From positions 1,291,306 through 1,355,305 of the forward strand of contig NC_057755.1 in NCBI RefSeq assembly GCF_004010195.1: a DNA stretch of 64,000 bases. The letters are read 5' to 3'. Positions 1,235 through 58,990 of the stretch are shown here, one piece after another. Positions within the stretch are counted from its first letter, which is position 1. The number at the start of each line of letters is the position of its first letter. The translations under genes were made by a program, and so were the position numbers. The notes beneath the pieces were generated by a model. The model had not been told where the DNA came from. It searched no databases and worked only from the letters and a program-made list of their open reading frames with translations. This stretch comes from Chiloscyllium plagiosum. Its lineage: Eukaryota.

Positions 1235-1408
1235 TGAGCTGAAAATGTGTTGCTGGAAAAGCGCAGCAGGTCAGGCAGCATCCAGGGAACAGGAGAATCG
1301 ACGTTTCGGGCATGAGCCCTTCTTCAGGAAGCCTGTTCCCTGGATGCTGCCTGACCTGCTGCGCTTTTCCAGCTCTGATCTCCAGCATCTGCAGACCTCA
1401 CTTTCTCC
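1235..1408. mobile_element. Penelope-like (PLE) terminal-repeat-derived hairpin insert with 14-bp TSD
   Basis: TSD tcactagattattc at 1221-1234 and 1409-1422. A forward pLTR piece is followed by its inverted copy; the same terminus flanks GIY-YIG-coding fragments at 13562 and 39056. Confidence 0.85.
1297..1330 (-). ncRNA. Minimal type-I hammerhead ribozyme motif (PLE family A)
   Basis: Minus strand ttc-CTGAAGA-a-gggc-tcat-gccc-GAAA-CG-TC-gat: catalytic core, stem II, palindromic stem III and GUC site. Confidence 0.75.
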
Positions 1409-2879
1409 TCACTAGATTATTCATCAAGCAACTCAGGTAGTTTTTTTGGGGACCTGGGTTTGAATCCTGCCATGCAAGGTGGTGAGATTTGAATCCAATT
1501 TAAACAAAGAAATCTGAAATTTGGAGTCTAATGATGATCCTAAAACCATTGTTGATCATCAGAAAAATCACCTAGTTCACTCATGTCCTTTCGGAAAGAA
1601 AACTGCTCTGATTACCTGGTCTGGCCACATGTGAGTTCACACCCACAGCAATGTGATTGACTCTTAACTCTCTTTAGAATTTAGAAAGTCAAGGATGATC
1701 TGTTTAAAGCCTTCACGAAAGTAATAGTAAAAGACAGGGTTGATTTAAAGATAAATTATTTTCACTGGCTGGGGAATCCTAGAACGAGTTAGTGTAGTCT
1801 AAGAGTTTATGTCCAGACTGTTCACTTCCACACAAGGTGGTAAATGTTTAGAACTCTCATTCCCGAGCAGAGGCGATATATGCTGGGTCAGTTGTTAATT
1901 TTGAACTTGGGGGAGAGAATTTTGTTAACCAGAAGTATTAAGGGATATGGGCCAACGCCAGGTATATGGCATTAGGTATCAAATCAGCCATGATCTCACT
2001 GAATGGTGGGACAGGCTCAAGAGGCTGAATAACTTAATTCTCTACCTATGTTAACTTTTTTGTACTCCATTATGGACTACCAGTTGAGTACAGTTGGAGA
2101 GGTACAGTCTGATCAAGGCTCAAAATCCATGTCTAAAGTTCTCTGGGAAATCATTAGCAGTTTGGGATTAAACATGGGTAGTTTTGAAAAGGTGCTGGGA
2201 GCATACGTCCAAATTTGGGAAGTTATTGACTAGAGAAAAATACAAAAGAAGAAAATAACATGGGAAATGATAAATAGAAAATAAGAGGTCGGCATGGACT
2301 AGTTGAACTGAAGGGTCTCATTCCATGCTGCATGATTCTGACAGAGAATGCAGATCTAACAGCAAATCAACAGATAACAGGAGGTTACAAAAATTTAAAA
2401 AAAAATACAGAACTTAAGGCATGCATGTAGCATTTGAAACAAAGCAGATGAACTAGTAGTGCAAATTAGAATTTGTGCTAAGTTCAGTCCAATGGTCATA
2501 GTACACATTTCCATGAAAACTATATTGATTTTAGGAGTAGAGACTACCAAACTAATGTAAGCAAAATAAAATTAATCAAGGAAATGATGGTACTGAATGA
2601 TGGGTCCCCAGGACAGGATGTTTTTAGTTCAGGGTTTGAAGGAAGTAGTTGAGATTTCTTGTATTTGACTTAAGGATGTGAGCACCACTGCCAATGTTAT
2701 TGTGCACCCTCATTTGCTCTTGAGAACGTGATGAGCTGCTTTCTTGAACTGCTGAAGTCCTTGTGATATAGGTGCCCAAATTGTTTTTGGGCCCACTAAT
2801 GGTGACAGGACAGTCTGCATGTTCCAAGTCAGGATGTTGTGATTGTTATCAAGGAGATTGCAAATGTGTAAGACAATAT

Positions 2880-3885
2880 GAAATGGACAGGCCTAGACTA
2901 TTTGGCCCCTTGACCCTCTGCCATTCAATAGGATTGTGGATGATCTGACATTCCTCACATCCACTATATTACTGCCTTTTCTTGATAACCCTTGATTGTC
3001 ATTAGTGATCAAGAATCCATCTATCTCTGTGTTCAATGTACACAGGAGTCTGCCCGCTCTGTGGGAAGGAGATCCGAAGACATTCAACACTGAGAATAAA
3101 TTCATACTCATCTCAGTCTTAAATTGGCCCTCCTTTAAACTGATTCTATGCTGTCTGGTCCTTGACTGTCTCATGAGAGTAAACATCCACTTAGTATTAA
3201 GCCTGTCAACTCCCTTAACAATGTTATAAATTTCAATGACATCAACCCTCATTCTTCTAAACTTCAGTGAGTACAGTTCCAATCTGCCTAACCTTTACTC
3301 CATAAGAAAATTCCTCCATACCAGGGATATGGGGACTAAAACTGCTCATTGTGCTCCAGATGTGGCATCACCAGAACCTGCCGCTACAACTTCAAACCCT
3401 TTTGAAATAAGGGTCAGCATTCCATTAGCCTTCCTGATTACCTGCTGCCCCTGTGTGCTAGCTTTGTATTTCATTCCCAAGTCTGTATTGCAGCTTTCTG
3501 TCATTTTTCTCCATTTAAATAGTACTTTGTTCTCCTGTTCTACCTTCCAAAAGAACAACTTCTCATTTCCAACATTGTGCTTCATTTGCCAACTTTTTGC
3601 CCACTTGTGTAACCTATCAATTTCACTCTGAACTATTTGTATTCCTCTCAAAAGTTACCTTTCACCTATTTTTGTGTTGCCCGCCAATTGGCTACAATAT
3701 ATTGGCTTCCTTTCTCCAAGTCATTGATACATATTGTAAACAGTTGCAATCCCAGTACTGATCTATATGGAACCCCACCGGTTAAAAGATTGGCAATCTG
3801 AAAAAGAACTCCCTACCCCAGTCTCTATTTCCTTTCCATTAGTCAATTCTCTATCTGTGCCAATGTGCTATCTCCAATACCTTGT
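2880..3885 (-). mobile_element. CR1 LINE 3' fragment (old)
   Basis: ORFs 2893..3282 and 3346..3651 carry CR1 RT C-terminal motifs (IDRLHKWAKSWQM; LYSLKFRRMRVDVIEIYNI). Confidence 0.8.
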
Positions 3886-3898
3886 TCCCCATAAGTAT

Positions 3899-3990
3899 TC
3901 CTGACGAAGGGCTTATGCCCGAAACATCGATTCTTCTGTTCCTCTGATGCTGCCTGACCTGCTGTACTTTTCCAGCAACACAATCTTGAC
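3899..3990 (+). mobile_element. PLE-derived 92-bp insert carrying a hammerhead motif
   Basis: CTGACGA-agggcttatgccc-GAAA-CATC at 3901-3928; flanked by ccccataa(g/t)tat at 3887-3898 and 3991-4002. Confidence 0.75.
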
Positions 3991-6479: not shown

Positions 6480-6860
6480 TAGGCAGGCAGTCAGTCCATG
6501 TGACATTTTATAAAATCCTACTGTGAATATAGAACCAGTCTGACTCATGGTTGGAGTATAGGCAGACTCTAACCTCACACCCTTAGTCTGGGATTTACAT
6601 ATTAATGAATCGAAACCTGCAACCCATTCTCAGTGATTTAAAGATTTGACATCAGTGTAGATTTATTCAATAGATCACATCAATTGTATGACACCTTGAT
6701 TTTTTACTCTAAATTCGGTGTCCTATGATCTTGCCCCACTAGCTACCTGATGAAGAAGCAGCCCTCTGAAAGCTTGTACTTCTAAATAAACATGCTGGAC
6801 TGTACCCTGGTGTTCTGTGATTTTTTAACTTTGTCTATCCCAGTCCAACACCAGCACCTC
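6480..6860 (+). mobile_element. PLE-like terminal fragment (family B) with hammerhead motif
   Basis: tac-CTGATGA-agaagcagccctct-GAAA-GC-TT-gta at 6744-6778. The downstream aaataaac..ggact..gtgattttt..cccagtccaac tail is shared with the insert at 27233-27380. Confidence 0.6.
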
Positions 6861-8003
6861 TACATCACAGATCCAAAGTCGTCTGTTCCCTGTGTGGCTC
6901 CAGCCATCTGCTGTCTTTGTTGCTCAACATAGTAGAGAGCATGATGTTTAGAAGGTGCTATCTTCTCGTGCACCTTGCAGATTGTACATGCTCCTGCCAC
7001 TGTGCATGGGTTTTGGAGAAAATGAATGAACATGTGAATGAATGGAGTACTGTTCAAGCATGCTGCTTTGTTTCAGACGGCGTTAACTTGACTGTTGTTG
7101 AAGCCAAACTCATTGTAGCCAGCCAGTCATATTTGATCACTCTCCTTTCACTGCCTCCTGTCTGTGCAGGCTTTGCAACTCAGCAAGTGAGAATAGAAGA
7201 AAACTCAACCGTGTGGAGAGTTCCCATTTCCTTGCTCTTGTTATTCACACTGAGCAAGTTGGGTTTTGATTTAATAGGAGCAACCAGGATGTTATTCAGA
7301 GATTGCCTACCCTGGGAAGCTGGTTAGAAGTTAATTCTTAAATGTCAATTAATATTTGAATTAACCAGTCCAAGCTTGTTTCTTACATTCCCACATGGAC
7401 AGCCTCAGTTTTAAAAACAAACATTCACTGGATGACAACATCACTAGCTAAGCCAACATTTATGGTCCGTTCCTAATTCAATTACAAGTCAACCATATTG
7501 CTGTGGGTCTGGAGTCAATTTCTTCCCTAAAACACATTTGTGAATCAGCAGGTGTTCTTGACAGTCTCTTCAAGGTCTTGATTTTTTTTTCTGAATTGAA
7601 ATACCACTATCTGCTCTTTTGGTTTGTTTTTCTTTCATATTAGTCTATTTATCAAGGGGGGGGGGAAAGGTGATTCTTTGTGTCTTCCATTTCCTGCTCT
7701 CAGATTCTGCCCTTTTGTAATTTTGGTTTTTCTGATTTAATCCTTTATGTTCTTGCTATCCCTTTAAAATGATTACATTTCCGTAGTTTCTTGTATTCCA
7801 GGATATTGAGAGATATGAGGCAAAACTGGATAAATGCAATTGAGTCACAGAACAGTTGTGATTCCACTAATTTCTGCTGTGTCTTAAGGAGATGTTTGAT
7901 AATGTAGTTCACAGGAAGATTCAGAAATTTGTTAAAAGGAGAATTGTAACAGCCTAGGTAGAAACTTGATACTATGTTTTGTTTTGTTGATTTCTGTTCT
8001 CAG

Positions 8004-8170
8004 ATCCGATCCCTACAATCGATGAATTCCTGACAAAATGTGATGATTCCCAACTGTTCCAACTAACAAAATTCTACCAAGACAGACTTGAACAAGCAAT
8101 TGAAGAGCGGGCAGAAGGCCTCTGGCTCATGTTAATGGATGCCGACCAATTCATTGGACAGGAATATCAT
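8004..8170 (+). pseudogene. NLR gene N-terminal exon (helical, death-fold-like domain part 1)
   Basis: Acceptor ttctcag|, donor |gtgagt. Open frame PIPTIDEFLTKCDDSQLFQLTKFYQDRLEQAIEERAEGLWLMLMDADQFIGQEYH ends in phase 0, matching the exon at 21418. Resembles N-termini of shark NLRP3-like proteins as I recall them. Confidence 0.8.
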
Positions 8171-9580
8171 GTGAGTGGGAATATAGTGCTCACATAATTT
8201 GGGCAAATCCACCCCATAAATTGCCTCGGAAAATTTGATCACAGTATTGACTCAAATAAGTCTCTGGCCACACGCAAGTTTCAATTTCAACAAACGCTGT
8301 ATTTCAATTAAGCCGGCAAAAGACCAATAGTCTATGGTCCAGAGTATCTATCAAGATATCTCTGGACTAATAATAGATTTCCAATATCTAGCAAAAAGAC
8401 AGTATATTTCATAGCCCTAATGTGTGTAACTATTTTGCATGTTTAAGTCCCCACAGCGTAATGTTTCTAAGTTCTCATAATTCAAAAGTTGTTAAATCAA
8501 TATATCAATACAAAGCTATTGATTCAAATATTTTTACATCTGGTGCCATTCTCAAACGTCAAAGCAGATAAAGCCAAACAACTGTCAGTATTCTATTCAT
8601 TGAATATGATGGCAGCTTTATCTGAGGGGTAACAATTCCATGGTCTGAGATTCTATGGTCTTTAATTCATTCTCATGGTCACTATGACTGCCATTTTAAA
8701 CTTGTAAGGCAAATTATTATTGCAAAATGGAGACTTACAAATGGAGGCATTTAACTGTTGATTCCCCAATACTTTACCAACTGGGTGACCACGTAAAAGT
8801 TGTCCTTGTAAATGGAATGGAACAAAACATTCCGAGGAAGCTCCTTCAACCACAGGCTGGTTTTCTCTGTTCGCTGCTGATAGGCATATTAGTGATACAT
8901 CAAGTCCTGGCAGTTAGATCGGATTGGCTAATGGTCAATCGAGCCTACTCTGCCATTCAGTATGATCATAGTTGATCCTTTATTTAAATATCTCACACTC
9001 AATCAGATCTACATTTGAAGGAAAAACCCTACAGTCTGAAACAACTACCTAACTATTCTAATCCCGTTTTCCCATAGCCTTGTATGCCTTGATGTCGCAA
9101 GTGCACATCTAAATACTGCGAAAATATTATGAGGGTTTCTGCCTCTACCACTCTTGCAGGCAGTGAGTTCTAGATTTCCATCACCTTCTGGGTGAAAACA
9201 TTTTTCCTCACATCCTCTCTAAACCTCCTTCCCCTTATCTTAAATCAATGCCCACGGTCATTTGAATCCTCCACCAATGGGAACAGTTTCTAACTATCTA
9301 TGCCCCTCATAATTTCATGAGGCCCACCACCACCATGAGCCCAGGCTGTTAAATCTCTGTTTTGTATTTGATGGAAACTCTCCAGCCTGTGCAAATTCCT
9401 GTAAAATCTCCTCTGCACCCAATCTATTCCAATTGCATCCTTTCTATAATATGGATTCCAGAACTGCACATAATACTCGAGCTGTTGCGCAGACGGAATT
9501 TCGTGTTGGTCCCAAGGTCCTGTACTTCCCCCGGGAACCTGTGCCCCACAACCTGAGCCGCCTCCGGAATTTTAATTTTT

Positions 9581-10977
9581 AAGCATGTAGAACATAGATA
9601 GAACATAGAACAATACAGCACAGAACAGGCCCTTCGGCCCACGATGTTGTGCCGAACATTTGTCCTAGCTTAAGCACCCATCCATGTACCTATCCAATTG
9701 CCGCTTAAAGGTCACCAAAGATTCTGACTCTACNNNNNNNNNNNNNNNNNNNNNNNNNNNNNNNNNNNNNNNNNNNNNNNNNNNNNNNNNNNNNNNNNNN
9801 NNNNNNNNNNNNNNNNNNNNNNNNNNNNNNNNNNNNNNNNNNNNNNNNNNNNNNNNNNNNNNNNNNNNNNNNNNNNNNNNNNNNNNNNNNNNNNNNNNNN
9901 NNNNNNNNNNNNNNNNNNNNNNNNNNNNNNNNNNNNNNNNNNNNNNNNNNNNNNNNNNNNNNNNNNNNNNNNNNNNNNNNNNNNNNNNNNNNNNNNNNNN
10001 NNNNNNNNNNNNNNNNNNNNNNNNNNNNNNNNNNNNNNNNNNNNNNNNNNNNNNNNNNNNNNNNNNNNNNNNNNNNNNNNNNNNNNNNNNNNNNNNNNNN
10101 NNNNNNNNNNNNNNNNNNNNNNNNNNNNNNNNNNNNNNNNNNNNNNNNNNNNNNNNNNNNNNNNNNNNNNNNNNNNNNNNNNNNNNNNNNNNNNNNNNNN
10201 NNNNNNNNNNNNNNNNNNNNNNNNNNNNNNNNNNNNNNNNNNNNNNNNNNNNNNNNNNNNNNNNNNNNNNNNNNNNNNNNNNNNNNNNNNNNNNNNNNNN
10301 NNNNNNNNNNNNNNNNNNNNNNNNNNNNNNNNNNNNNNNNNNNNNNNNNNNNNNNNNNNNNNNNNNNNNNNNNNNNNNNNNNNNNNNNNNNNNNNNNNNN
10401 NNNNNNNNNNNNNNNNNNNNNNNNNNNNNNNNNNNNNNNNNNNNNNNNNNNNNNNNNNNNNNTCCTCAAAGAATTCAATCAGACTTGTAAGGCAAGACCT
10501 ACCCTTCACAAATCCGTGCTGGCTGTCCCTAATCAAGCAGTGCCTTTCCAGATACTCATAAATCCTATCCCTCAGTACCCTTTCCATTACTTTACCTACC
10601 ACCGAAGTAAGACTAACTGGCCTGTAATTCCCGGGGTTATCCCTATTCCCTTTTTTGAACAGGGGCACAACATTCGCCACTCTCCAGATGAAAAGATCAT
10701 TGCCAACGGTACTGCAATTTCCTCTCTTGCTTCCCACATAATCCAGGATAGATCCCATCAGGCCCGGGGGACTTGTCCATCCTCAAGTTGTTCAAAATAT
10801 CCAACACCTCTTCCTTCCTAACATGTATCTCCTCTAGCTTACCAGTCCGTTTCACACTCTCCTCTTCAACAATACGGTTCCTCTCAATCGTAAATACTGA
10901 AGAAAAGTACTCATTCAAGACCTCTCCTATCTCTTCCGACTCAATACACAGTCTCCCACTAAAGTCCTTGATTGGAC
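9581..10977 (-). mobile_element. CR1 LINE (5'-truncated) spanning the assembly gap
   Basis: (CATAGAA)n tail at ~9584-9610; RT motifs WRVANVVPLFKKG..PGNYRPVSLTSVVGK..SQHGFVKGRSCLTSLIEFFE and DKSPGPDGIYP. Confidence 0.9.
9734..10462. other. Assembly gap (729 N)
   Basis: Run of N. Confidence 1.
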
Positions 10978-12016
10978 CATGTATCACGCCGTCCACCTCT
11001 TCTCCCTCATCCACCACCCGGACACGCCTTAGCATGCCCATCTGCCAGTGGAGGACTCTCTATGCGGGAGTCCTCCCCCTTTCTCTCGGGATCTGGGGTG
11101 AAGGGGACCTCCGCGTGCAGCACCCTGTGATCGCAAATTGCGATGTTTCATGGACTCCCAGCCCAACTGTTTGTTCTGTGGTGCTGTGGAATCCATGGAT
11201 CATGTGTATATATGGGGTGTGGGCGTTTGCATTCCCTTTTTGATTTTCTTAAAAACCTCCTTCTCTGTTTCTGGTTGCACTTCAGTCCCACGCTCCTGAT
11301 CTTCAGGCACCCAGTACGAAAGGAGGAGGGCAGATCTGAGGACCTCCTTGTGGGTCTGTTCGTGGGCCTGGCCAAACTGGCCATAAACAGGTCCAGGCAG
11401 CGGGCCGTGGAGGGGGTTGTTAGGTTCGACTGCCTGCCCCACTTCTGCGGTTATGTTAGAGACTGGGTGTCTCTGGAGAAGGAGCACGCGGTGTCCACCA
11501 ACACCCTCGGGCTGTTCAGGGAGAGTTGGGCACCGTAGGGAGTGGAGTGTATTATTTCCCTGTTCAATTCTATTTTGATTCAATCCCTGCCCCTCCCCTT
11601 CACTGTTTGCTTATGCAACATTGCCCTTTGATGTCAAGGGCACTGCTTGTCACTGGCCACTTGGGTGTTGGAAACTGAATAAAGATTTGTGCACCTTGAG
11701 TTTTAAAAAAAATACTCTAGCTGTGGCCCTGCCAATGTTTTGTACAGTTCCAGCATCATCTCCCTGCTGTCCTGCTTTCTCCCTATATTATTTGATGCCT
11801 TTTGTCTCTGTTTGCTGAGCTGTGTATTCAGTGACCTTGGCCTTCAGGATTTCTAAAAGTTCACTACCTCGCTGAGCAAATTTATCATCTCTGTTCAAAA
11901 TGACCGTTCATAACACAAGAGACCATGACCCCTTGTGTTATACCATAGCTAAGAAAGTATTATCTCTGCATTAATTCTGTCCAAGCCTGTCAAACTTTTA
12001 TGTTTCAATAACCTCC

Positions 12017-12192
12017 CAGTCGATACAGGGCCCGCCGTGATACTTCCTTAAAAAGGATACAAAACTAAAATTCTGGAGGCACCTCAGGTTGTGAGGCACA
12101 GGTTCCCGGGAGAAGTACAGGACCTTGGGACCAACATGAAATGCCGTCTGCGCAACAGCTAGAGTATTATGTGCAGTTCTGGAATCCATATT
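12017..12192 (-). repeat. Inverted local copy of the CR1/Tx1 junction at 9448-9579
   Basis: The reverse complement matches 9448-9579 at roughly 90%, including host flank, TSD and Tx1 5' end. Confidence 0.85.
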
Positions 12193-12679
12193 TCTGAACT
12201 CCAGTAAGTACAGGCTTAGTTGGCTCAATAATCAACATTGGGCAAACTTGTGGAATGAATTGCGAGAGGAGGTAGCGGATGCAGAACATTTAGATAAGGA
12301 GATGAGTAGGAAAGGTTTGAAGGGATATGGGTCAACTGCAAGTAGGTGGGGCTAGTTTGGTTTGGAAACATGGTCAGTGTGGGCTAGTTGGACCAAAGGG
12401 TCTGTTTCCAAGACTCAGTTCCCCAGTTTTACTCACTATCATCCACATATTTACATTCATAAAATTGAATCCAGCCCTGATCTCTTTGTTGATTAGTGGT
12501 GCTGGAAAAGCACAGCAGGTCAGGCAGCATCCGAGGATCAGGAAACATTTTTGCCCAAATAATTAATTGTTTGTTCACTGCATCTTTTGAGCCTTCCTTC
12601 ACTTGCTTTTCCCCATGCCCCATCTTCTCTCTTTTACCATCATTGGTACTAAGGCAAGGCCCATTATTCAACCTGTCTT

Positions 12680-13175
12680 TCAAGTTTTAATCCACTACGC
12701 TAGTTATTCGCTCAGCAGGAGATTAGTTCCATTTCTGTGAAACTCCCCTCTTCTGAACAGCTTTCTTCTTTTCCCAAAACTGATCACAATGTCCCAAAAA
12801 TCTAGACTGCTACCTTCTACACCATCCTTCAAGTCACGAATTTACCTCCCTCATCTGCCTTTGCCTAAACTGAGAAGCTGTAAGCACCCATGGTACTTCT
12901 GTGAATACTATGCTGGATGTCTTGTGTTTCAAATTCCTCAGCTGCTGAAATCGGTCCCCTAAGATCTCCAAGCTGTTCCTCCCTATGTTGTTTGTTCTCA
13001 CATGGAAACACAACCCCTGGTTTTCATTCTCCCTTTCCAGGCATTTATCCAGTTGTTCTGTTAATGACCTGAAGCCTTCTATCTGGGAAGCAACAGACCA
13101 TATATGACTCACCATCTTGGCTGCAAAATAGACTGTGTATCCCCCCAGCTAATGAATCACCCACTGCTACGATCT
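12680..13175 (-). mobile_element. Old CR1 ORF1 (SGNH esterase) relic
   Basis: GDSL-like motif near 13150-13165; ORF 12834..13115 has FHVRTNNIGR (HVGTND-like). Confidence 0.6.
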
Positions 13176-13359
13176 TTCTAGTCTGCCTACGAGCCACCGC
13201 CTTTTTTTTATTATTGGTCTTCAAAGTAACCTTGGGTTTCTCTCAAGTGATCCACCCCGACTCAGTTGTGTAGCTCACTAAATAGGCAAGGGAGAAAACT
13301 GTGAATCATAGACAGGTTAGCCTAGCATCAACAGTGGAGAAAATACTGGGATTTCTTTT

Positions 13360-15440
13360 TATTCACTCGTGAGATGTGGGCATCACTGGCTGGCTAGCAT
13401 TTATTGCCTATCCCTAGTTGCCCTTGAGAAGGTGGTGGGGGTGTTGGTGAGCTATCTTCATGAACTGCTACAATCCATGAGCTGAAGGTAGACCCACAAG
13501 GCCATTAGAATTCTAGAATGTTTTACCCAGCAGCAGTGAAAGAAGGGGGATATATTCCCAACTGAAAATGTGTTGCTGGAAAAGCGCAGCAGGTCAGGCA
13601 GCATCCAAGGAGCAGGAGAATCGACGTTTCGGGCATGAGCCCTTCTTCAGGAATGAGGAAAGTGTGTCCAGCAGGCTAAGATAAAAAGTAGGGAGGAGGG
13701 ACTTGGGGGAGGGGCGTTGGAAATGTGATAGGTGGAAGGAAGTCAAGGTGAGGGTGATAGGCTGGAGTGGGGGTGGGGGCAGAGAGGTCAGGAAGAAGAT
13801 TGCAGGTTAGGAAAGCGGTGCTGAGTTCGAGGGATTTGACTGAGACAAGGTGGGGGGAGGGGAAATAAGGAAACTAGAGAAATCTGAGTTCATCCCTTGT
13901 GGTTGGAGGGTTCCTAGGCGGAAGATGAGGCGCTCGTCCTCCAACCGTCGTGTTGCTATGGTCTGGCGATGGAGGAGTCCAAGGACCTGCATGTCCTTGG
14001 TGGAGTGGGAGGGGGAGTTGAAGTGTTGAGCCACGGGGTGGTTGGGTTGGTTGGTCCGGGTGTCCCAGAGGTGTTCTCTGAAACATTTTGCAAGTAGGTG
14101 GCCTGTCTCCCCAATATAGAGGAGGCCACATCGGGTGCAGAATGGGGATATATTCCCAAGTCAGGATGTTGAGTGAGTTGGGAGGGAAACTTGTAGGTGG
14201 CTGTTTTCCTGTATTTCTAATGCATTTATCCTTCCATATGGAACTGATATGGGTTTGGAAGGTGTTGCGAAAGGAGCATTGGTGAATTTCTGCAGTGCAT
14301 CTTTCTGATGATAGCAGCAGGAGTATGTAGAGAGTATGGATGTTTTTTTTTTTGGAGATCAATCATCTCGGCTCCAGGATATTTATGCAGGAGCTCCTCA
14401 GGCTGATGCCCAACCATTTTCAGCTAATCCAATGACCTTCCCTCCATCATTACCATGTCCAATAAGAGGCTATTTAACCATTACTTTCTGACATTGAATG
14501 GTGTTACATTCATTGAATTCTCCACTTGCAACAACTATAGGGTTACCATTGGTGCCAGTCAAGCAGGCTACTTGTTGGGAATGATGTCAAGAATCTTGCC
14601 TGTTATTGGAGCTACACTCATGCAGGCATTGCAGGGGACGATCCCATCGCTGTCCTGACTTGTGCCTTGCAGATAGGGTGTACAGGCTTTTAGAAGTCAA
14701 GAGGTGAATTACTTGCTGAAACATTTCCAGCCTCAGGAATTCTTCATAGCTGCCATATTTATATGGTGAGTCAACTTGAGTTTCTGGTCAATAGTAACCC
14801 CTAGAGTTGATAAAAGGAGGGGATTTAGTGAATATAACACAAGTAGTTAGATAGAAGGAAGGTCATTGAAGCACCTGAAGATGGTTGGCCGTAAGACACT
14901 ATCTGGAGTCCTTGCAAAGTTGCCCTGGAACTGAGATGATTGATCTTCAGAAGCAGCAGTCATTTTACTATGTGCCAGGTTATGACTCCAACCAGTGGAG
15001 AGTGCCCCCGATTCCCATTGACTGAGTTTTCCTCTGGCTCTTTGATGCTACAGTAAGTCACATGGAGGCTTGATGTAACAAGGTCAGGAGCCGAATGGCC
15101 CTCTCAGAACCCAAACTGGGTGTTAGTGAGCAGGTTATTGCGAAGCAGGTGGTGCTTGATATAACTGTTGATGTCATGTTCCATCATTTCAGAAATTGTC
15201 TGAGTTGGGTTTGTTTTGCATTTTGTGCATAGGACATAGCTTGTCAATTTTCCATATTGTCAGGAGATGCTATTGCTGTAACTATACTGAAACAGCTTTG
15301 CTTGGGTGCTGCAAATTCTGGAGCTGAAGTCCTCTGTATTATTGATGGAATTATCAGGGCATAGTATTTGCAGTATTTAGTTCCTCCAAACATTTCACCC
15401 TATCCAATGAAATGAGTCAAATTGGCTGAAGGCAAGCTCA
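13360..15440 (-). mobile_element. Fragmented CR1-group LINE (second family, tail ttcactcgtgagatgtgggcatcactggc)
   Basis: Same tail and body as 21995-25140; interrupted by a PLE and rearranged. Confidence 0.65.
13562..14139 (-). mobile_element. Penelope-like element 3' fragment (GIY-YIG endonuclease + pLTR with hammerhead)
   Basis: CTRCGLLYIGETG and AQHFNSPSHSTKDMQVLGLLH..ERLIFRLGTLQPQGMN; hammerhead at 13619-13655 (-); TSD gaa(g/t)ggggatatattcccaa at 13542-13561 and 14140-14159. Confidence 0.9.
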
Positions 15441-15789
15441 TGTTCACTGTGGAAGGGAGACTAAATGATACTATTCTTTTTAATGGAGATGAGCTGCAAT
15501 GCAAAGTGACTTGATGGGGAGATTTGTGCTTGGAGCACATAAAACTGGCACACTGGGTGCAGTGAGAAATCAGGAAGGCTCCTGGAACTTTGGCCCTTAG
15601 TTCAAGGAGGTTGGAGTAAAAAAGTCAGGAAGTCTTACTGTAACTGTACAGGTGCTGGTGAGGCCATGTTTGGAGTACTGTGAACAGTTTTGTTCCCCTT
15701 TTATTTAAGGAAAGACATCATTCCATTAGAGAAAGTTCACTAGGATGATCCCTGATATGGCTAGTTATGATAAAGACTAAATAGATTTG

Positions 15790-16965
15790 CCAGATCTGTT
15801 CAAAGTAGGTCCTGTTTAGTACAGAGTACACACAGCATGAAGGAGGGTATCCTCAATGTGAAGGTGGCACTTTGTCTTCACAAAACTGTGTGCAATGGTC
15901 ACTCTTACTGATACTGTCATGAAGGGATGCATGTGCTGGAGGCAGATTAGTGGAAATGAGGCTGTTTTTTTCTATTCTTGGTTCCCTCGCCACCTGCTGC
16001 AGACCTCTCTTCTAGCAGCATTGTCCTGTAGGACCCAACCAACTCCGTCAATAGCACTGCTGCCAAGTTACTCTGGGTGGTGGATAATGAAAACCCTCTT
16101 CCAGTGATCTGAATAATCTGCACTCTGTGATTCCTTCTAGTGTTCTTCATGGAAGAGTCCTGATTTGCAAGGTAACAGGTGATACATGATAATCAATAGA
16201 AAGGCTCTTTGTCTGTGTTCGACCTGATGCTATGAACGTCAATGACTCTAGACCCAGTGTTGAGAACTCCAGGACATCTCCCTGCTGACTGTGTCCAACT
16301 GTGTCACCACTTCTGCAGGATTAGATTAGATTCCCTACAGTGTTGAAACAGGCTCTTCGGCCCAACCAGTCCTCACCGACCCTCCGAAGGGTAACCTACC
16401 CAGATCCATTTCCCTCTGACTAATGCACCTAACACTATGGGCAATTTAGCATGGCCAATTCATCTAACCTGCACATCTTTGGACTGTGGGAGGACCTGGA
16501 GGAAACCCATGCAGACACTGGGCGAATGTGCAAACTCCACACATAGTCGCCCGAGGCTGGAATCGAACCTGGTGCTGTGAGGCAGCAGTGTTAACCACTG
16601 AGCCACTGTGCCGCAAGATAGTGGTATCTGGGACATTGTACAGTATGATTCTGTGGGTAGTCAGGCAGTTGCTTGACTATTGTGAAACAGCTGTCCCAAT
16701 GTTGGCACAAACCCTCAGATGGTACTAAAGAGGACTTTGCAGGGTTGACAAGTATTTTTGCACTGCGGTGACCAGGTAGATACCACGTGGTCCATTGTTT
16801 TTTTTTTGTTGAGACTTCATAACAATTGTAACAACCCAGTGGCTTGCTAGCCCATTTCAGAGGGCATGTAAGAATCAACTACATTGCTGTAAGTCTGGAG
16901 TCACTTGTAGGCCAGACCAGATGAGAATAGCAGATTTCTTTAAGAGCATTAATGAACCAGATGAT
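15790..16965 (-). mobile_element. CR1-group LINE 5'/endonuclease-region fragments (second family)
   Basis: Similar to 24400-25140; degenerate and interrupted by a V-SINE. Confidence 0.5.
16319..16614 (-). mobile_element. HE1-like tRNA-derived V-SINE
   Basis: gcggcacagtggctcagtggttaacactgctgcctcacagcacc head, V-domain core gtggagtttgcacatt, (TAATC)n tail. Confidence 0.85.
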
Positions 16966-17621: not shown

Positions 17622-17939
17622 ATTTAGATCAGGTTACCTATAGTTGGGAAACAGGACCTTTGGCCTAACAAGTCCACACTGACCCTCCGAAGTGTGACCC
17701 ACCCAAACCCATTCCCCCTAATTAATGCACCTTACTCTATAGGCAATTTAGTATGACTAATTCATCTCATCTGCACATCTTTGGACTGTGAGAGGAAACC
17801 TGAGCACCTGGAGGAAACCCATGCAGACACGGGGAAAATGTGCAAACTCCACACATACAGTTGCCAAGGTAACAATTGAACCCGGATCCCTTTCACTGTG
17901 AGGCAGCAGTGCTAACCACTGAGCCACCATACCGCCCCC
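17622..17939 (-). mobile_element. HE1-like V-SINE
   Basis: Same head, core and tail as the other copies. Confidence 0.85.
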
Positions 17940-21589: not shown

Positions 21590-21690
21590 GTATAGTAAAA
21601 TGACAGAATTTTATTTCAGATTCAAGTACTTCAAATTTTCCTGTGATATTATGAAGATCTTTTCTCATAAAAGTCAATTGATTTAAACAG

Positions 21691-27200: not shown

Positions 27201-27232
27201 GTAACTGCTTGTTCAGTACCTTCATTATTGAT

Positions 27233-36350: not shown

Positions 36351-36384
<34 letters not shown>

Positions 36385-36455: not shown

Positions 36456-36462
36456 TCTGTAG

Positions 36463-41784: not shown

Positions 41785-44700
41785 TATAGAGTCATAGAGA
41801 TGTACAGCATGGAAACAGACCCTTTAGTCCAACCCGTCCATGCCAACCAGATATCCCAACCCAATCTAGTCCCACATGCCAGCACCCGGCCCATATCCCT
41901 CCAAACCGTTCCTATTCAAATACCCATCCAAATGCCTCTTAAATGTTGCAATTGTACCATCCTCCACCACACCCTCTGGCAGCTCATTCCATGCACGTAC
42001 CACCGTCTGCATGAAAAAGTTGTCCCTTCGATGTCTTTTATATATTTCCCCTCTGACCCTAAACCTATGCCCTCTAGTTCTGGACTCCCTGACCCCAGGG
42101 AAAAGACTTTGTCTATTTATCCTATCCATGCCCCACATAATTTTGTAAACCTCTATAAGGTCACTCCTCAGCCTCCGACGCTCCAGGAAAAATAGCCCCA
42201 GCCTGTTCAGCCTCTCCCTGTAGTTAAGATCCTCCAACCCTGGCAACATCCTTGTAAATCTTTTCTGAACCCTTTCAAGTTTCACAACATCTTTCCGATA
42301 GGAAGGAGAGCAGAACTGCACACAATATTCCAACAGTGGCCTAAACAATGTCCTATATAGCCGCAACATGACCTCCCAACTCCTGTACTCAATACTCTGA
42401 CCAATAAAGGAAAGCATACCAAATGCCGCCTTCACTATCCGATCTACCTGCGACTCCACTTTCAAGGAGCTATGAACCTGCACTCCAAGGTCTCTTTGTT
42501 CAGTAACACTCCCTAGGACCTTACCATTAAGTGTATACGTCCTGCTAAGATTTGCTTTCCCAAAATGCAGCACCTCGCATTTATCTGAATTAATCTCCAT
42601 CTGCCACTTCTCAGCCCATTGGCCCATCTGGTCCAGATCCTGTTGTAATCTGAGTTAACCCTCTTCACTGTCCACTACACCTCCAATTTTGGTGTCATCT
42701 GCAAACTTACTAACTGTACCTCTTATGCTCGCATCCAAATCATTTATGTAAATGACAAAAAGTAGAAGGCCCAGCACCGATCCTTGTGGCACTTCCACTG
42801 GTCTGAAAAGCAACACTCCACCACCACCCTCTGTCTTCTACCTTTGAGCCAGTTCTGTATCTGAATGGCTAGTTCTCCCTGTATTCCATGGAATCTAAGC
42901 TTGCTTATCAGTCTCCCATGGGGAACCTTGTCGAACGCCTTACTGAAGTCCATATAGATCACATCGACTGCTCTGCCCTCCTCAATCATCTTTGCTGCTA
43001 CTTCAAAAAATTCAATAAAGTTTGTGAAACATGATTTCCCACAGACAAAACCATGTTGACTATCCCGAATCAGTCCTTGCCTTTCCAAATACATGTACAT
43101 CCTGTCCCTCAGGATTCCCTCTAACAACTTGCCCACCACAGAGGTCAAGCTCACCAGTCTATAGTTCCCTGGCTTGTCTTTACCGCTCTTCTTCAACAGT
43201 GGCACCACGTTTGCCAACCTCCACTCTTCCGGCACCTCACCTGTGACTATTGATGATACAAAGATCTCAGCAAGAGACCCAGCAATCACTTCTCTTGCTT
43301 CCCATAGAGTTCTCGGGTACACCTGATCAGGTCCTGGGGATTTATCCACCTTTAACCGTTTCAAGACATCCAGCACTTCCTCCTCTGAAACCTGGGCATT
43401 TTGCATGATCTCACCATCTATTTCCCTACAGTCTATATCTTCCGTATCCTTTTCCACAGTAAATACTGTTTCAAAATATTCAGTTTGTATCTCCCCCATT
43501 TTCTGTGGCTCCACACAAGGTCCGCCTTGCTGATCTTTGAGGGGGCCCTATTCTCTCCCTAGTTACCCTTTTGTCCTTAATATATTTGTCAAAACCCTTT
43601 GGATTCTCCTTAATTCTATTTGCCAAAGCTATGTCATGTCCCTGTTTCGCCCACCTGATTTTCCTCCTAAGTATACTCTACTTTTTTTATACTCTTCTAA
43701 GGATTCACTTGATCTATTCTGTCTATACCTGACATATGCTTCCTTCTTTTTCTTAACCAAACCCTCAATTTCTTTAGTCATCCAGCATTCCCTGTACCTA
43801 CCAGCCTTGCCTTTCACCCTGACAGGAATATACTTTCTATGGATTCTCGTTATCTCATTTCTGAAGGCTATCTATTTTCCAGCCATCCCTTTACCTGTGA
43901 ACATCTGCCCCCAATCAGTTTTCGAAAGTTCTTGCCTAATACCATCAAAATTGGCCTTTCTCCAATTTAGGACTTCAACTTTTAGATGTGGTCTATCCTT
44001 TTCCATCACTATTTTAAAACGAATAGAATTCTGGTCGCTGGCCCCAAAGTGCTCCCCCACTGACACCTCAGGGGAAAGTGAGGACTGCAGATGCTGGGGA
44101 TCAGAGCTGAAAAATGTGTTGCTGGAAAACCTCAGCAGGTCAGACAGCATCCAAGGAGCAGGAGAATTGATGTTCGGGCGTAAGCCCTTCTTCAGGAATC
44201 CACTGACACCTCAGTCACCTGCCCTGCCTTATTTCCCAAGAGTAGGTCAAGTTCTGCACCTTCTCTCGTAGGTACATCCACATACTGAATCAGAAAATTG
44301 TCTTGTAAGCACTCAAGAAATTCCTCTCCATCTAAACATTTAACGCTATGGCAATCCCAGTTGGTGTTTGGAAAGTTAAAGTCCCCTCCCATAACTACCC
44401 TATTATTCTTACAGATAGCTGAGATCTCCTTACAAGTTTGTTTCTCAATTTCCCTCTGACTATTGGGGGTCTATAGTACAATCCCAATAAGGTGATCATT
44501 CCTTTCTTATTTTTCAGTTCCACCCAAATAACTTACCTGGATGTATTTCTGGGAATATCCTCCCTCAGCACAGCTGTAATGCTATCCCTTATCAAAAATG
44601 CCACTCCCCCTCCTCTCTTGCCTCCCTTTCTATCCTTCCTGTAGCATTTGTATCCTGGAATATTAAGCTGCCAGTCCTGCCCATCCCTGAGCCATGTTTC

Positions 44701-54489: not shown

Positions 54490-56105
54490 ATATTCCTCTC
54501 CTGTCCCTTGTCTGCCTTCCACAGGGACCATTCCGTCTGGGACTCCCTGGTCCATTCTTCTTTCACTCCTAACAAACCCCACAGCCCCAAGACACCTTCC
54601 TCTGCAACCGCTGAAGGAGTAAAACCTGCCCATTTACCTCCTCCCTCCTCAGTACCCAAGGACCTGAACATACCTTTGACGTGTAGCAGAGATTTACCTG
54701 CACTTGTCACAATCTAGTCTACAGCATTCGCTGCTCATATTGTGGGTGAATGCTTCACAGAACATCTACGTTCTGCCTGCAAAAACGACCCTGAGCTTCC
54801 AATTGCCTGTCACTTTAACACACCATCCTGTTCCCTTGCCAACATTTCTGTCTCAAGCTTTCTGTAGTGTTCAGTTGGAAGAACAATACCTCATTTTCCA
54901 TTTGGGACCTTGCAGCCATCTGGACTCAATATCGAGTTCAATAATTTTAGGGCCTGAACTCTCCCATGTCCTTTCCCCTAACCAACATACCAGGCCTTGT
55001 TAACTAATGGTGTACTATTAGACATCACCCATTGTAAACCACTAACAGTCTCCAGTAACAGCTTTCATCCTCCCAGCCAGATTATAATCCACTCCCTTGT
55101 CTGTCCAAATCTTCTTCTCTCTTTTTGTGCTCATTCCTAGCATTTACTCCTTATCCTGCCTCCTATAGCTACCTAGACTACACGTCCTCTCACCCTACTT
55201 CCTGTAGTGACCTAGACAACACCGCATCCCCCCACCTCCTGTAGCTATCTAGACTACACCTCCTCCCAGTTTACCTCCTGTAGCTACCTAGATTATACCT
55301 CCTCCCACCCTACCGCCTGTAGCTATATAGACCACACCTCCTCCCACCCTACCTCCCTTAAAAACACCATTCCTTATTCCCATTTTCTCCACCTCTACCG
55401 CATATGTTCCCAGGATGACCAATTCCATCACATAAAGTCCCAGATAGACTCCTTTTTTCATGATTGCAACTTCCCTTCCCATGTGGTTGATGACCACACG
55501 ATGTGGTCTCCTTTACATCGGAGAGACAGGATGCTTTTTTGTGGATCGTTTAAGAGAACATCTCTGGGACACCCACACCAACCAACTCCAACACCCCATG
55601 GCTGAACACTTCAACTTCCCCTTCCACTCCGTCAAGGACAGGCAGGTCATAGGCTTCCTCCACCATCAAACCATTACCACCCGATGCGGGGAGGAGGAAG
55701 GCCTTATATTCCGCCTTAGGACCCTGCAAACACATCCACCCTGACCTATCAGCTTTACCTCACCTTCGTCCACCTATCACTTTCCCAGCTACCTCCCTCC
55801 AACCCCACCCCCTCTTATCTATCTCTCAGCCCCGACTCACAGGCCTCATTCCTGATGAAGGGCTTATGCCCAAACCGTTGATTCTCCTATTCTTCAGAAG
55901 CTGCATGACTCGGCTGTGCTTTTCCAGCACCATACTGTCGACTCCTTACCCCCTCCCCCTATACTATCTGTTGCATAAAAAACTGCCATTTTCTGAGCTA
56001 CCATGACTTCTGAGGAAGGGTCACTCGACCGGAAATATTAACTCTGATTTCTCTTCACAGACGCTGCCGGACCTGCCAAACCTTTCCAGCAATTTTTGTT
56101 TTTGT
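54490..56105 (+). mobile_element. Nested Penelope-like fragments (two families) with hammerhead motifs
   Basis: GIY-YIG remnants (TRCGLLYIGETG..LREH..AEHFN in ORF 55460..55744; EEQYLIFHLG). Hammerheads at 55852-55880 (degenerate) and 56010-56043 (CTGAGGA-agggtcactcgaccg-GAAA-TATT-aact, family D). Confidence 0.75.
55160..55355 (+). repeat. ~40-bp minisatellite (about 5 units)
   Basis: cctcctgtagctacctagactacacctcctcccacccta repeated with variation. Confidence 0.85.
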
Positions 56106-56459: not shown

Positions 56460-56778
56460 GGGGTGGCACGGTGGCTCAGTCCTCAGCATTGCAGCCTTAC
56501 AGTGCCAGGGACCCGTGTATAATTCCAGCCTTGGGCGACTGTCTTTGTGGAGTTTGCATGTTCTCCCTGTGTCTGCTTGGGTTTCCTCTGGGTGCCCCGG
56601 TTTCCTCCCACAGTCCAAAGATGTGCAGGCCAGTTGAAATGGCCATACTAAATTGCCCATAGTGTCAGGTGCATTGGTCAGAGGGAAATGCGTCTGGAAG
56701 GGTTACTCTTTGGAAGGTCAGTGTGGACATGTTGGGCTGAAGGGCCTGTTTCCACACTGTAGGGAATTAAGTCTAATC
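56460..56778 (+). mobile_element. HE1-like V-SINE
   Basis: ggtggcacggtggctcag head, V-domain core, tail. Confidence 0.85.
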
Positions 56779-56789
56779 TTGGTCTTCTT

Positions 56790-57275
56790 ATCACTGGGAA
56801 TATCACTGAAATTGAACTCCACGAGCCATATAAATATGTTGTTTACAAGAGCAGGTCAGAGGTTGGGCATCCTGCAGTGAGTAACCCACCTCCTGACTCC
56901 CCAAAGCCTGTCCACCATCTAAAAGGCACAAGTCAGGAGTGTGATGGAATAATCCCTACTTGTCCTCGATGAGTGCAGCTCCAACAACACTCAAGACGCT
57001 TCACACCATCCAAGACAAAGCAGGCCACTTCACTGGCACAACATCCACAAAAATTCAATCCCTCCACCACCGATGCTCAGTAGCAGCAGTGTATACTCTC
57101 TACAAGATGCACTGCAGAAGTTCACCAACGATCCTCAGACAGCACCTTCCAAGCCCATGGCCACTTCCCCGTAGAAGGACAAGGGCAGCAGTTACATGGG
57201 AACATCACCCCGTGCAAGTTCCCCTCTGAGACACTTCCCATCCTGACTTGGAAATATATTGGCCATTCCTTCAGA
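56790..57275 (+). mobile_element. CR1-group LINE fragment (second family)
   Basis: Matches the reverse complement of ~22200-22600 (TIQDKA..SLHHRCSVAAVYTLYKMHC). Confidence 0.75.
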
Positions 57276-57509
57276 ATATCTCTCAGAATCCCGGGGCGCT
57301 GTAGCTAAACATGTGTCAGTGTGGGTGCCCCCAGACACAATGGAGTGTAATGATAGAAGAAGGAAGCTCATCACAACCTGCCAAAATGTCAACTGGGGAT
57401 TGCTAATAAGAATTGTAGGAGGGTCACTTTGAGAACTCTTCTCGTCTCGTTCTATCTCACTCTTACTCTCTCGGTCATCTATGACTACTCTCACCACTGA
57501 CACATTTGG

Positions 57510-58990
57510 TCTTCCTTATTCTCTTCCCTACCATGATACCTTTTCAATATGTTTATGTGTTCAAGGTTTACATAAAGATTTCTACCTCAGCTGATGGTTG
57601 CCGTGATTATGGATATGATCACTGAGCTGGGGAGTTGGTTTGCAGACATTTCGTCCTCTGTCTAGGTGACATCTTCAGAGTTTTGGAGCCTCGTTGTAGC
57701 AACTGTGAAAGCACTGAAGATGTCATCGAGACAGAGGACAAAACGTCTGCAAATCAACTTCCCAGCTCAGCTAACATACCACAACCATGGCATGTTTATG
57801 TGTCCTAACTGATTCTTATTCTTAAACAATTATCAGTCACTTTACCATCTCTCTCGATTAATTTGCATGGGCCTCTGAAATTTGCTTTCCAAGCCTATCT
57901 GAACTGAACCAGGTCTTTATAAAGTATATGCCTTGTGAAATGCTTGTTTATCAATGCCTACATTAGTCCTATATGCCCTACCATTGGAATTTTATATGCT
58001 CCTCCCAATTCCTCGTTACTCTAATTGAGCCGTAATTCTATTTAATGAATACCGTCTTTTCTTTGTTTGTATCTGTGAATACTTGCACATCAGAATTCCT
58101 TTTTTTCTGACACAGTCCCAAACTGGATCTTCTCCAGCCTCAGATTCAGTATAAGCTGACCATGCTCACTTATTCAACTCTGGATCAGCATTCAAGTAAC
58201 ACTGACTTATCAAACACTTCTGTTGAATTATCTTCAAGTCTTAATAAAGTTTCGGCTACCCTAATAACGATATTACTGTGGTCTCTGCCGATAGACTTTG
58301 TTTAGCCATTGCTCTGGTCACTACACACAAAAAACTAAAGATTTTTCCATCTCTTTAGCCTCAGCTGGATATTTTTTTTGTGATTGAAGACGCAACTATA
58401 ATCTTCATTTCTGATAAATCATTCCTCAGAAGTAAACAACGGTGTCCACAGACAATTTCTAAACTTCCTGGATTACAGCATGTTGCACTCTAATTGGACT
58501 TTGTACAATGGAACCGGGATACACTCTCCATCCATTGCATCCTTCCTGACCCTGTGTAGTTCAGTAGTTCTATTATCTTGGAGTATAGTTACAGTATGTT
58601 TTCTTTGACGAAAAGATATGTTATCGTCCCTTTCGACCAAAGCCTTTCATATTTCTCATCTCCACTCTATGTACTTCTTCGGCACTCACAGCAGTGCTTA
58701 TCTCCCGTCTCGGTAAAGGTGCAATCTGATCCATGGCCGTTTCCTTTAGAGTTTCCTTTTTGGAATCATCATTATGAACACCATTAAGTCCCATGAGTTT
58801 CCCTCATAATTTCCATCATTCTTAACAACTGTGTCCCACGTTGTTACAACGTGGCTCCAGATTTCCGTCTCCATCCTCAGTGCCTCCTTCTCCAGTCTGA
58901 ACATGAGAACTTGGCGCATTCCCAGCTCTCCATTCTTTACCCTGGCTACTTGCCTTCCTTTCGCTCCATTTGCAGTCACTTCTGACTGCA
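57510..58990 (-). mobile_element. Degenerate Gmr1-type Gypsy LTR retrotransposon (gag CCHC - protease - integrase)
   Basis: Minus strand, in order: CYNVGH..WKL (~58800-58850), VTILQD (~58575-58592), IPVPLYKV, CVVTRAMAKQ (58298-58327), ADPEL..KGILM, AYKIPMVGHIG..KHF..KDLVQF (~57900-58000), QLGHINILKRYH (across the insert at 57549-57803). Confidence 0.7.
57561..57791. mobile_element. PLE family C hairpin insert with two opposed hammerheads and 12-bp TSD
   Basis: TSD atgtttatgtgt at 57549-57560 and 57792-57803; hammerheads at 57641-57680 (-) and 57711-57750 (+). Confidence 0.75.

What the first reader, a model, noticed from the sequence alone, without database searches (positions are those of the whole stretch)
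1297..57750. Window-wide set of minimal hammerhead ribozymes from four distinct PLE-derived families
Seen: about a dozen CUGANGA-stemII-GAAA-NN-UH motifs. Family A: 1297-, 3901+, 13619-, 33148-/33183+, 39149-, 44166-, 55852+. Family B: 6747+. Family C: 18566+, 57641-/57711+. Family D: 56010+, degenerate 17146+. Stems I and II differ between families but stay paired (attc/gaat, tac/gta, gca/tgc, cca/tgg), and stem III is reduced to a loopless palindrome (AACGU/AAGCU). Established: Penelope-like elements carry minimal type-I hammerheads thought to cleave as dimers. Inference: several co-existing ribozyme-bearing PLE lineages have seeded self-cleaving motifs throughout this locus, including NLR introns.
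Basis: partly seen in the sequence, partly recalled or inferred. Interest (0 to 1): 0.75.

Follow-up and report, generated by a model that had tools for sequence, protein, structure and literature searches.

The report
Penelope hammerhead stubs in shark DNA
The motifs are real copies of the already described minimal hammerhead found at the ends of Penelope-like jumping genes, here at genome-average density and mostly decayed, and many copies begin at the ribozyme's front edge rather than at its predicted cut, which suggests they were likely copied from uncut RNA.

Summary
Observation confirmed. All 14 listed sites exist; 10 keep the conserved core and 6 pass a minimal-hammerhead descriptor (shuffles: mean 0.06). 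Each of families A-D lies 3' of RT/GIY-YIG coding sequence in longer copies, so the Penelope-like (PLE) origin holds. Stems covary between subfamilies, and a fifth family outside the window has the U3-A8 core swap. But the locus is ordinary: 96 hits in 1.34 Mb of sampled genome predict about 4.5 per window (roughly 250,000 genome-wide). No window copy is fully intact, none has an intact tandem partner, three insertions are fold-back hairpins, and the NLR is frameshifted. So 'self-cleaving motifs seeded in NLR introns' is mostly a fossil record. Extra finding: in families A, B and D, 5' ends pile up at the ribozyme's front edge (-37 to -23 from the cut; 38 of 70 truncated solo A copies), and 19 of 76 short solo copies carry target-site duplications. 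Likely cause: internal reverse-transcription start and run-off from uncut RNA. I found this pile-up in none of the papers searched; the scan's own notes report it before, on this and other shark DNA. No cleavage was tested. New member of a known kind.

The parts
1296..1331 (-). Family A minimal hammerhead (core 1327->1300, predicted cut after 1300); core and palindrome intact, 5' strand of stem I lost; one arm of inverted insertion 1226-1412 with 12-bp TSD
1332..1412 (+). Family A tail-only inverted arm, starts about 7 nt after the predicted cut
3897..3932 (+). Family A hammerhead; core intact, palindrome decayed (ACAT), stem I with U.U; short solo copy starting at -31
6744..6778 (+). Family B hammerhead; core, AGCT palindrome and TAC/GTA stem I intact, stem II carries two substitutions relative to the family majority
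13619..13654 (-). Family A hammerhead, best-preserved window copy (stem I 2 bp + U.U + 1 bp); in NLR intron, antisense to the gene
13876..14139 (-). GIY-YIG endonuclease remnant of the same family A element
   Evidence: 47% to P0004 residues 812-899, E 4e-19
17143..17180 (+). Degenerate family D motif, core bases lost; in NLR intron
18563..18602 (+). Family C hammerhead; core intact, CCA/TGG stem I, palindrome decayed (ATGT); in NLR intron, sense
27234..27389 (.). Inverted family B tail-only insertion with 13-bp TSD, in NLR intron
33148..33181 (-). Family A (A2) hammerhead, left arm of fold-back insertion 33055-33243 (14-bp TSD); starts at -29
33182..33215 (+). Family A (A2) hammerhead, right arm; starts at -28; stem I 5' strand lost; in NLR intron
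39149..39184 (-). Family A hammerhead; core intact, one mismatch in stem II; long copy
39547..40113 (-). RT C-terminal/linker/GIY-YIG remnant of the same element
44165..44199 (-). Family A motif, GAAA box damaged; short solo copy starting at -31 with 15-bp TSD
55848..55883 (+). Family A motif, GAAA box lost; nested in the upstream part of the family D copy
56006..56043 (+). Family D hammerhead; core present, first pair of stem II broken, mismatch in stem I
54594..55735 (+). RT/GIY-YIG remnants upstream of the 55852/56010 motifs
57642..57681 (-). Family C (subfamily C2) hammerhead; core intact, stem I broken; left arm of inverted pair
57711..57750 (+). Family C (C2) motif, G12 lost; right arm, starts 6 nt before the core; GCA/TGC stem I
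8000..36539 (+). NLR (NACHT-LRR) gene, broken: exons about 8000-8167, 21418-21591, 21696-21755, 25477-27201 (three frames, two stops in the first block), LRR exon 36486-36539

Best explanation
The motifs are minimal type-I hammerhead sequences in the terminal repeat and tail of several Penelope-like retroelement families, left in this window as truncated, mostly decayed insertions that are likely inactive, and likely copied from uncut RNA. Shown: each family lies 3' of RT/GIY-YIG coding sequence in its longer copies; the architecture matches the published minimal hammerhead; stems covary between subfamilies; copies decay largely at CpG; in families A, B and D many copies are 80-140-nt 'ribozyme + tail' stubs, solo with target-site duplications or as fold-back pairs, whose 5' end sits at the ribozyme's front edge. 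Inferred: in the master elements the motif works as a slow, dimer- and protein-assisted ribozyme (two RNAs pair through ACGU or AGCU); reverse transcription starts internally at the tail; when it uses the tail nearest the RNA's 5' end it runs off an end that lies just before the ribozyme, giving the stubs; short self-complementary words at that edge, or stem I complementarity, join two opposed cDNAs into fold-backs. The window's own copies would rarely cleave a host transcript.
For: PLE link: same-strand tblastn hits to the RT+GIY-YIG protein P0004 upstream of the motif in 15, 6, 7 and 10 of 30 loci for A, B, C, D; 7 of 10 long RT-bearing loci carry a descriptor-passing family A motif downstream of the ORF. 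Architecture: among 86 genome-sample hits, 85 have the extra base after A9 and 84 a 2-nt stem III insert, neither required by the descriptor; 55 have a perfect palindrome. In homology-selected copies the palindrome centre of A is CG 41, CA 21, TG 13 of 85. Covariation: stem I position 3 in family C is C-G 5, G-C 5, T-A 2 of 14, in B C-G 26, T-A 3 of 36; across 13 hand-picked representatives 8 of 11 pairs change on both sides, score 0.479 vs 0.206 shuffled and <=0.232 slid; family F has the U3-A8 core. 5' ends: 38 of 70 truncated solo A copies, 17 of 29 young solo A copies, 26 of 64 B and 35 of 71 D arms start at -37..-23; replicate 9 of 22 A, 8 of 14 D; TSD >=8 nt in 19 of 76 short solo copies vs 0-4 in 30 shuffles. 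[quoted passage not shown]
Against: No cleavage or RNA 5' end was measured. Family C shows no front-edge pile-up in the sample (0 of 7 truncated), nor do the 4 B copies of the replicate. The youngest abundant subfamily A1 has a U.U mismatch in stem I (61 of 84 A copies), so activity of that master is doubtful. The double-hammerhead fold is not the computed minimum for any of four window copies (best -10.5 vs -27.3 kcal/mol; the energy model ignores core contacts). Ten arms start exactly at +1 (10 of 49 in -10..+20), so some templates may have been cut. Few long D references came from the random sample (2), so unsampled subfamilies could inflate the D peak. Representatives were mostly descriptor hits, so that covariation is partly circular. 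Rfam has no hammerhead match.
Confidence: 0.85

Rival explanations
1. The dispersed motifs are active ribozymes that cleave or regulate host transcripts at this locus, including the NLR pre-mRNA.
For: Ten of 14 sites keep the conserved core; five lie in NLR introns; domesticated intronic hammerheads exist in amniotes (PMC6155905, passages).
Against: Density equals the genome average; 0 of 14 fully intact; the three sense-strand intronic motifs are degenerate (17147+), palindrome-decayed (18566+) or inside a -149.5 kcal/mol hairpin (33184+); the NLR frame is broken; single motifs showed no cleavage in Cervera 2014.
Confidence: 0.05
2. The stubs are copies of a separate non-autonomous SINE- or retrozyme-like RNA that starts at the ribozyme, rather than run-off products of the autonomous element.
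For: Short copies with TSDs and a preferred 5' end; animal retrozymes derive from PLE terminal repeats (bioRxiv 10.64898/2026.07.22.740005).
Against: 5' ends spread over 15 nt rather than one base; short and long copies carry the same subfamily variants; no tandem array of hammerhead units in the window and only 10 of 96 hits have a same-strand partner within 1 kb.
Confidence: 0.15
3. The front-edge pile-up reflects a reverse-transcriptase stop or microhomology hotspot at the 5' edge of the folded ribozyme, not an RNA end.
For: Self-complementary words sit at this edge and fold-back junctions centre on them (33179/33184; family F around AAGCTT).
Against: Solo copies with TSDs end at the same place without a partner arm; a structure block would be expected at the 3' side of the fold, which the enzyme meets first (inference).
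Confidence: 0.25
4. The motif cluster is a chance match or an alignment artefact.
For: No Rfam hammerhead hit.
Against: 6 vs 0.06 expected in the window; 86 vs 0-4 in the genome sample; of 16 possible 3/8 base combinations, 75 of 81 hits are C-G.
Confidence: 0.01

Closest known systems
Minimal hammerheads (min-HHR) of metazoan Penelope-like elements (Cervera and De la Pena 2014, PMC4209133; read: abstract, results, discussion, part of methods; supplements not opened)
   Same: Core, extra base between 9 and 10.1, G10.1-C11.1, palindromic 15.2-16.2, several variable families per genome, mostly single motifs from truncated PLEs, opposite-strand pairs, a U3-A8 family.
   Different: Cartilaginous fish are not among the vertebrates named in the sections read; reported counts there are about 4,000 (coelacanth) and 9,000 (Xenopus) with another descriptor, against roughly 250,000 extrapolated here; helix II is 4-7 bp here; 5' junction positions are not analysed there.
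Poseidon of Anolis carolinensis, PAc (Frangieh et al. 2024, PMC11167929; read: main text and most methods; 3 text supplements searched, no hits; figures not held)
   Same: Hammerhead followed by a 30-110-nt tail with two preferred 3' ends; insertion does not need cleavage.
   Different: That work maps 3' ends and in vitro chemistry; it does not report, in the text read, a pile-up of genomic 5' ends at the ribozyme's front edge. Families A, B and D here are of the zinc-finger-linker type, not Poseidon.
Canonical EN+ PLE insertion structure (Craig et al. 2021, PMC8557442; passages only)
   Same: 5' truncation, adjacent inverted 5'-truncated copy, optional tail, hammerhead in the pseudo-LTR.
   Different: Here truncation is strongly non-random and yields 80-140-nt stubs with 10-16-bp TSDs.
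Animal non-LTR retrozymes (Li et al. 2026, bioRxiv 10.64898/2026.07.22.740005; read parts 1-3 of 5; supplements closed)
   Same: PLE terminal-repeat origin; present in the one cartilaginous fish sampled.
   Different: Defined as tandem arrays with a hammerhead in each unit; the window's copies are solo or inverted.
Lunse, Weinberg and Breaker 2017, PLE-associated hammerheads cleaving as dimers (PMC5785218; not held; seen only as a reference and a review summary in PMC6765202)
   Same: By title and the review's summary: small PLE hammerhead variants that cleave as dimers.
   Different: Cannot say whether shark families are included; text not seen.

Membership tests
Metazoan PLE min-HHR (Cervera 2014) | CUGANGA, GAAA and UH core | tested here: met
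   Family majorities have it; 10 of 14 window sites keep it
Metazoan PLE min-HHR (Cervera 2014) | Unpaired base between positions 9 and 10.1 | tested here: met
   85 of 86 hits
Metazoan PLE min-HHR (Cervera 2014) | G10.1-C11.1 pair | tested here: met
   G-C or G-T in 76 of 84 A, 30 of 36 B, 21 of 24 C, 10 of 13 D copies
Metazoan PLE min-HHR (Cervera 2014) | No helix III; palindromic 15.2-16.2 | tested here: met
   84 of 86 with a 2-nt insert, 55 perfect palindromes; decay mostly CG to CA/TG
Metazoan PLE min-HHR (Cervera 2014) | Short helix I (4-5 bp) with compensatory changes | tested here: inconclusive
   3-4 bp with compensatory changes in B, C, D, A2, F; most A copies have a U.U mismatch (61 of 84)
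Metazoan PLE min-HHR (Cervera 2014) | Located in the terminal repeat of an RT + GIY-YIG element | tested here: met
   Pfam GIY-YIG passed its cut-off only for the A peptide
Metazoan PLE min-HHR (Cervera 2014) | Self-cleavage as dimers | not testable with these tools
   No assay; energy model does not favour the double hammerhead
Neptune/Nematis-type PLE (families A, B, D) | Zinc-finger-like linker between RT and endonuclease (Craig 2021) | tested here: met
   Read from translations: A and D, B pieced from three decayed copies; no tree built, so Neptune vs Nematis not resolved
Penelope/Poseidon-type PLE (family C) | C-terminal GIY-YIG without the linker motif | tested here: met
   L066, L069, L070 translations; weak Pfam GIY-YIG hits below cut-off; no tree built
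Non-LTR retrozyme | Tandem units each with a type I hammerhead | tested here: not met
   No such array in the window; 10 of 96 sampled hits have a same-strand partner within 1 kb
Rfam hammerhead families | Covariance-model match | tested here: not met
   No hammerhead hit at E<=1 over the window or E<=10 over 6600-6900
Domesticated intronic hammerheads of amniotes | Single-copy, conserved across species at one intron | tested here: inconclusive
   Multi-copy and decaying here; cross-species orthology not tested

The most novel reading that the evidence does not exclude
Shark PLE insertions are a genome-scale fossil map of the element's RNA: the RNA begins at the ribozyme's front edge, internal priming at the first tail produces hundreds of thousands of 'ribozyme + tail' run-off micro-insertions from uncut RNA, and a minor class starting exactly at +1 records real cleavage in the germ line. 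The palindrome (ACGU in A, C, D, F; AGCU in B) would act as a pairing code that lets some families cross-dimerise and keeps B apart.
Probability: 0.4. Interest if true: 0.55.

Novelty: new member of a known kind. Interest (0 to 1): 0.27.

Why it matters
The motif class, its PLE origin and its spread as solo copies are published. What remains useful: this genome carries on the order of 10^5 hammerhead motifs, and the junction statistics bear on an open question, namely what the PLE hammerhead does. Copies overwhelmingly keep the ribozyme whole and stop at its front edge, which fits in vitro evidence that uncut RNA is the insertion template, and gives a precise prediction for 5'-end mapping. For the window itself and its broken NLR gene there is no sign of a special role.

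Tried and rejected
Rfam scans gave no hammerhead; the microRNA-precursor hits (mir-354, mir-2007, MIR7725; all below gathering score) fall on the fold-back insertions and are not microRNAs by this evidence. First descriptor without the extra base found 1 site. Sequencing-run search: no RNA holder listed. Laying four runs on window 38950-39750: one RNA run of a coded organism that may not be this species gave 2,884 reads in both orientations, one run gave none; no place where many molecules begin or end; the library is poly(A) single-cell and the reads come from many copies, so this says nothing on cleavage or start sites; loose ends at 39184 (-31; 112 reads) fit the genomic junction class. Splicing as cause of the 5' edge: acceptor-like sequences lie near the edge in F, D and B1 but TSDs abut the edge directly with no shared upstream exon in the solo copies inspected, so rejected as the general cause. 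The +1 spike as proof of cleavage: of the 10 arms, one is an internal duplication, four are the two arms of two events or sit on a palindrome, and several coincide with stem I complementarity, so left open. Locus-specific enrichment: rejected (P of >=6 in 60 kb = 0.27). A/D heterodimer at 55852/56010 (same strand, 158 nt apart): both damaged. Paper searches; none listed a paper on shark PLE hammerheads as such or on front-edge truncation; one search returned 0 papers. The genome sample stopped at 140 loci, so the B and C junction counts remain small.


Full report
Setting. The window is G000:C46:1291306-1355305 in a 3.56-Gb genome. The closest named protein relatives of its retroelement and NLR sequences come from sharks, so I call it a shark genome by inference.

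Observation. A descriptor allowing the extra base after A9 finds 6 sites (1327-, 3901+, 6747+, 13650-, 18566+, 33179-) against a mean of 0.06 and a maximum of 2 in 300 shuffles. Copy by copy, 10 of 14 keep all conserved core bases; 17147+, 44195-, 55852+ and 57714+ do not. None of the 14 has core, extra base, stem II of 4 bp or more, perfect palindrome and stem I of 3 bp or more together. Rfam gave no hammerhead match.

Origin. Each family is a genome-wide repeat (first-look candidates 754, 3415, 4663, 1637 for A-D; 40 scored each). Longer copies carry GIY-YIG-type coding sequence upstream on the same strand; tblastn with the RT+GIY-YIG protein P0004 hits upstream in 15, 6, 7 and 10 of 30 loci (opposite strand 5, 1, 4, 5). 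Pfam GIY-YIG passed its cut-off for 1 of 9 peptides given (family A) and was weak for 2 (family C). Of 10 long RT-bearing loci, 7 have a descriptor-passing family A motif downstream of the frame. A, D and, from three decayed copies, B show a cysteine linker before the endonuclease; C lacks it, which by the definition in Craig 2021 (passages) makes A, B, D Neptune/Nematis-type and C Penelope/Poseidon-type; no tree was built. A and D share a tail segment.

Is the locus special? No. In 120 evenly placed 10-kb loci (1,154,078 non-N bases) the descriptor finds 86 hits against 0-4 in 10 shuffles; 4.7 are expected per window and six or more occur in 27% of 60-kb draws. Twenty more loci gave 10 hits in 187,222 bases. 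Extrapolated to an assumed 3.4 Gb this is about 250,000 motifs, about 77,000 at the strictest standard (26 of 86).

Is the structure under selection in the masters? Features not demanded by the descriptor recur: extra base 85 of 86, 2-nt stem III insert 84 of 86, perfect palindrome 55 of 86. In copies chosen by homology alone, stem I position 3 is C-G 5, G-C 5, T-A 2 of 14 in C and C-G 26, T-A 3, T-G 4 of 36 in B; core intact in 48 of 86 A, 19 of 36 B, 13 of 25 C, 3 of 15 D; losses follow CpG decay. Thirteen hand-picked representatives give changes on both sides at 8 of 11 pairs, score 0.479 against 0.206 shuffled and at most 0.232 slid; these rows are related and mostly descriptor hits, so this is supportive only. 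A fifth family, absent from the window, has U3-A8 in place of C3-G8, the swap Cervera 2014 reported in Schistosoma. Against: 61 of 84 A copies have U.U at stem I position 3, including two long open-frame copies.

How the copies were made. Profile search of the 120 loci gave 203 A, 75 B, 26 C and 77 D arms with tail; 3' ends are multimodal. After dropping 24, 7, 1 and 5 arms at locus edges, N gaps or without a usable alignment, 5' ends were set against the best long copy. Inverted partners: 92 of 179 A, 45 of 68 B, 4 of 25 C, 19 of 72 D. Of arms truncated within 250 nt of the predicted cut, those starting at -37 to -23 (the 5' strand of stem I and the start of the core) number 38 of 70 solo A, 17 of 29 young solo A, 26 of 64 B, 35 of 71 D and 0 of 7 C; only 7 solo A start further 3', so this is not simple decay with length. 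The window -37..-23 was chosen; the replicate used it unchanged and gave 9 of 22 A, 8 of 14 D, 0 of 4 B, 0 of 2 C. Nineteen of 76 short solo copies have a direct repeat of 8 nt or more at both ends against 0-4 in 30 shuffles, so they are insertions in their own right. In the window, 7 of the 14 sites start at -28 to -38, and four insertions show 12-15-bp duplications. Ten arms start exactly at +1 (10 of 49 in -10..+20), but most can be explained by stem I complementarity or palindromes at the junction, so cleavage in cells is neither shown nor excluded.

Mechanism. From Cervera 2014 single minimal motifs did not cleave, dimers cleaved weakly; from Frangieh 2024 a PLE protein starts reverse transcription internally at the tail, extends both nicked strands, needs no ribozyme cleavage for insertion, and the ribozyme cleaves only with the protein. 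I infer that the masters carry a slow assisted ribozyme, that priming at the tail nearest the RNA's 5' end and run-off at an end just before the ribozyme gives the stubs, and that two opposed cDNAs joined at short complementary words give the fold-backs. The RNA end itself is unmeasured; a polymerase stop is the main rival.

The window's copies and the NLR. An NLR gene on the + strand has exons near 8000, 21418, 21696, 25477-27201 and 36486; the NACHT exon runs over three frames with two stops in the first aligned block, so it is broken in this assembly. Five motif sites lie in its introns. The three on the sense strand are degenerate, palindrome-decayed or locked in a hairpin of -149.5 kcal/mol; the other fold-backs compute at -110.8 and -105.6; the double hammerhead is not the minimum-energy dimer for any of four copies tried. 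No intact tandem pair exists in the window.

Relation to earlier work. The motif class is published (Closest known systems). My seven paper searches listed no paper on front-edge truncation; Lunse 2017 could not be read, supplements of Cervera 2014 were not opened and those of the 2026 preprint are closed, and any of them may bear on whether shark families or these junctions are described. The scan's own notes report the same pile-up and the run-off reading on other pieces of this genome and on other shark genomes; I logged the pile-up before looking, my logged reading did not name run-off, and these unchecked notes are not counted as evidence.

Verdict. Real, correctly attributed to PLEs, ordinary for this genome, mostly fossil at this locus: new member of a known kind, interest 0.27.

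Noticed in passing
L276-L300 (e.g. L284:1555-1603 -), not in the window: A fifth hammerhead family with the U3-A8 core swap, perfect 4-bp stem I and ACGU palindrome; 1421 first-look candidates; most copies start at the ribozyme's front edge and inverted pairs centre on AAGCTT; long copies have a pyrimidine tract ending in AG within stem I, like a splice acceptor.
   Followed up: partly
window 8000-36539 +: Broken NLR (NACHT-LRR) gene of a large shark family; only one LRR exon found in the window.
   Followed up: partly
window 33920-36438: 2.5-kb pyrimidine-rich tandem array (15-, 21- and 25-nt units) interrupting a LINE remnant and ending just before the LRR exon.
   Followed up: no
window 55688-56118 +: Family A copy nested in the terminal repeat of a family D copy on the same strand, 158 nt between cores, both damaged.
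   Followed up: partly
L154:9490-9528, L223:2776, L230:4252: Further small hammerhead families beyond A-D and F among the 86 sample hits.
   Followed up: no
L263, L175, L165, L284: Same-strand partial tandems 210-340 nt apart, the arrangement that could form a double hammerhead.
   Followed up: no
window 30673-45630, 41781-49764 and others: Many RT-bearing LINE remnants, several as long inverted pairs.
   Followed up: no
L002-L029: N runs lie upstream of many young family A copies, so long young copies are under-sampled.
   Followed up: no
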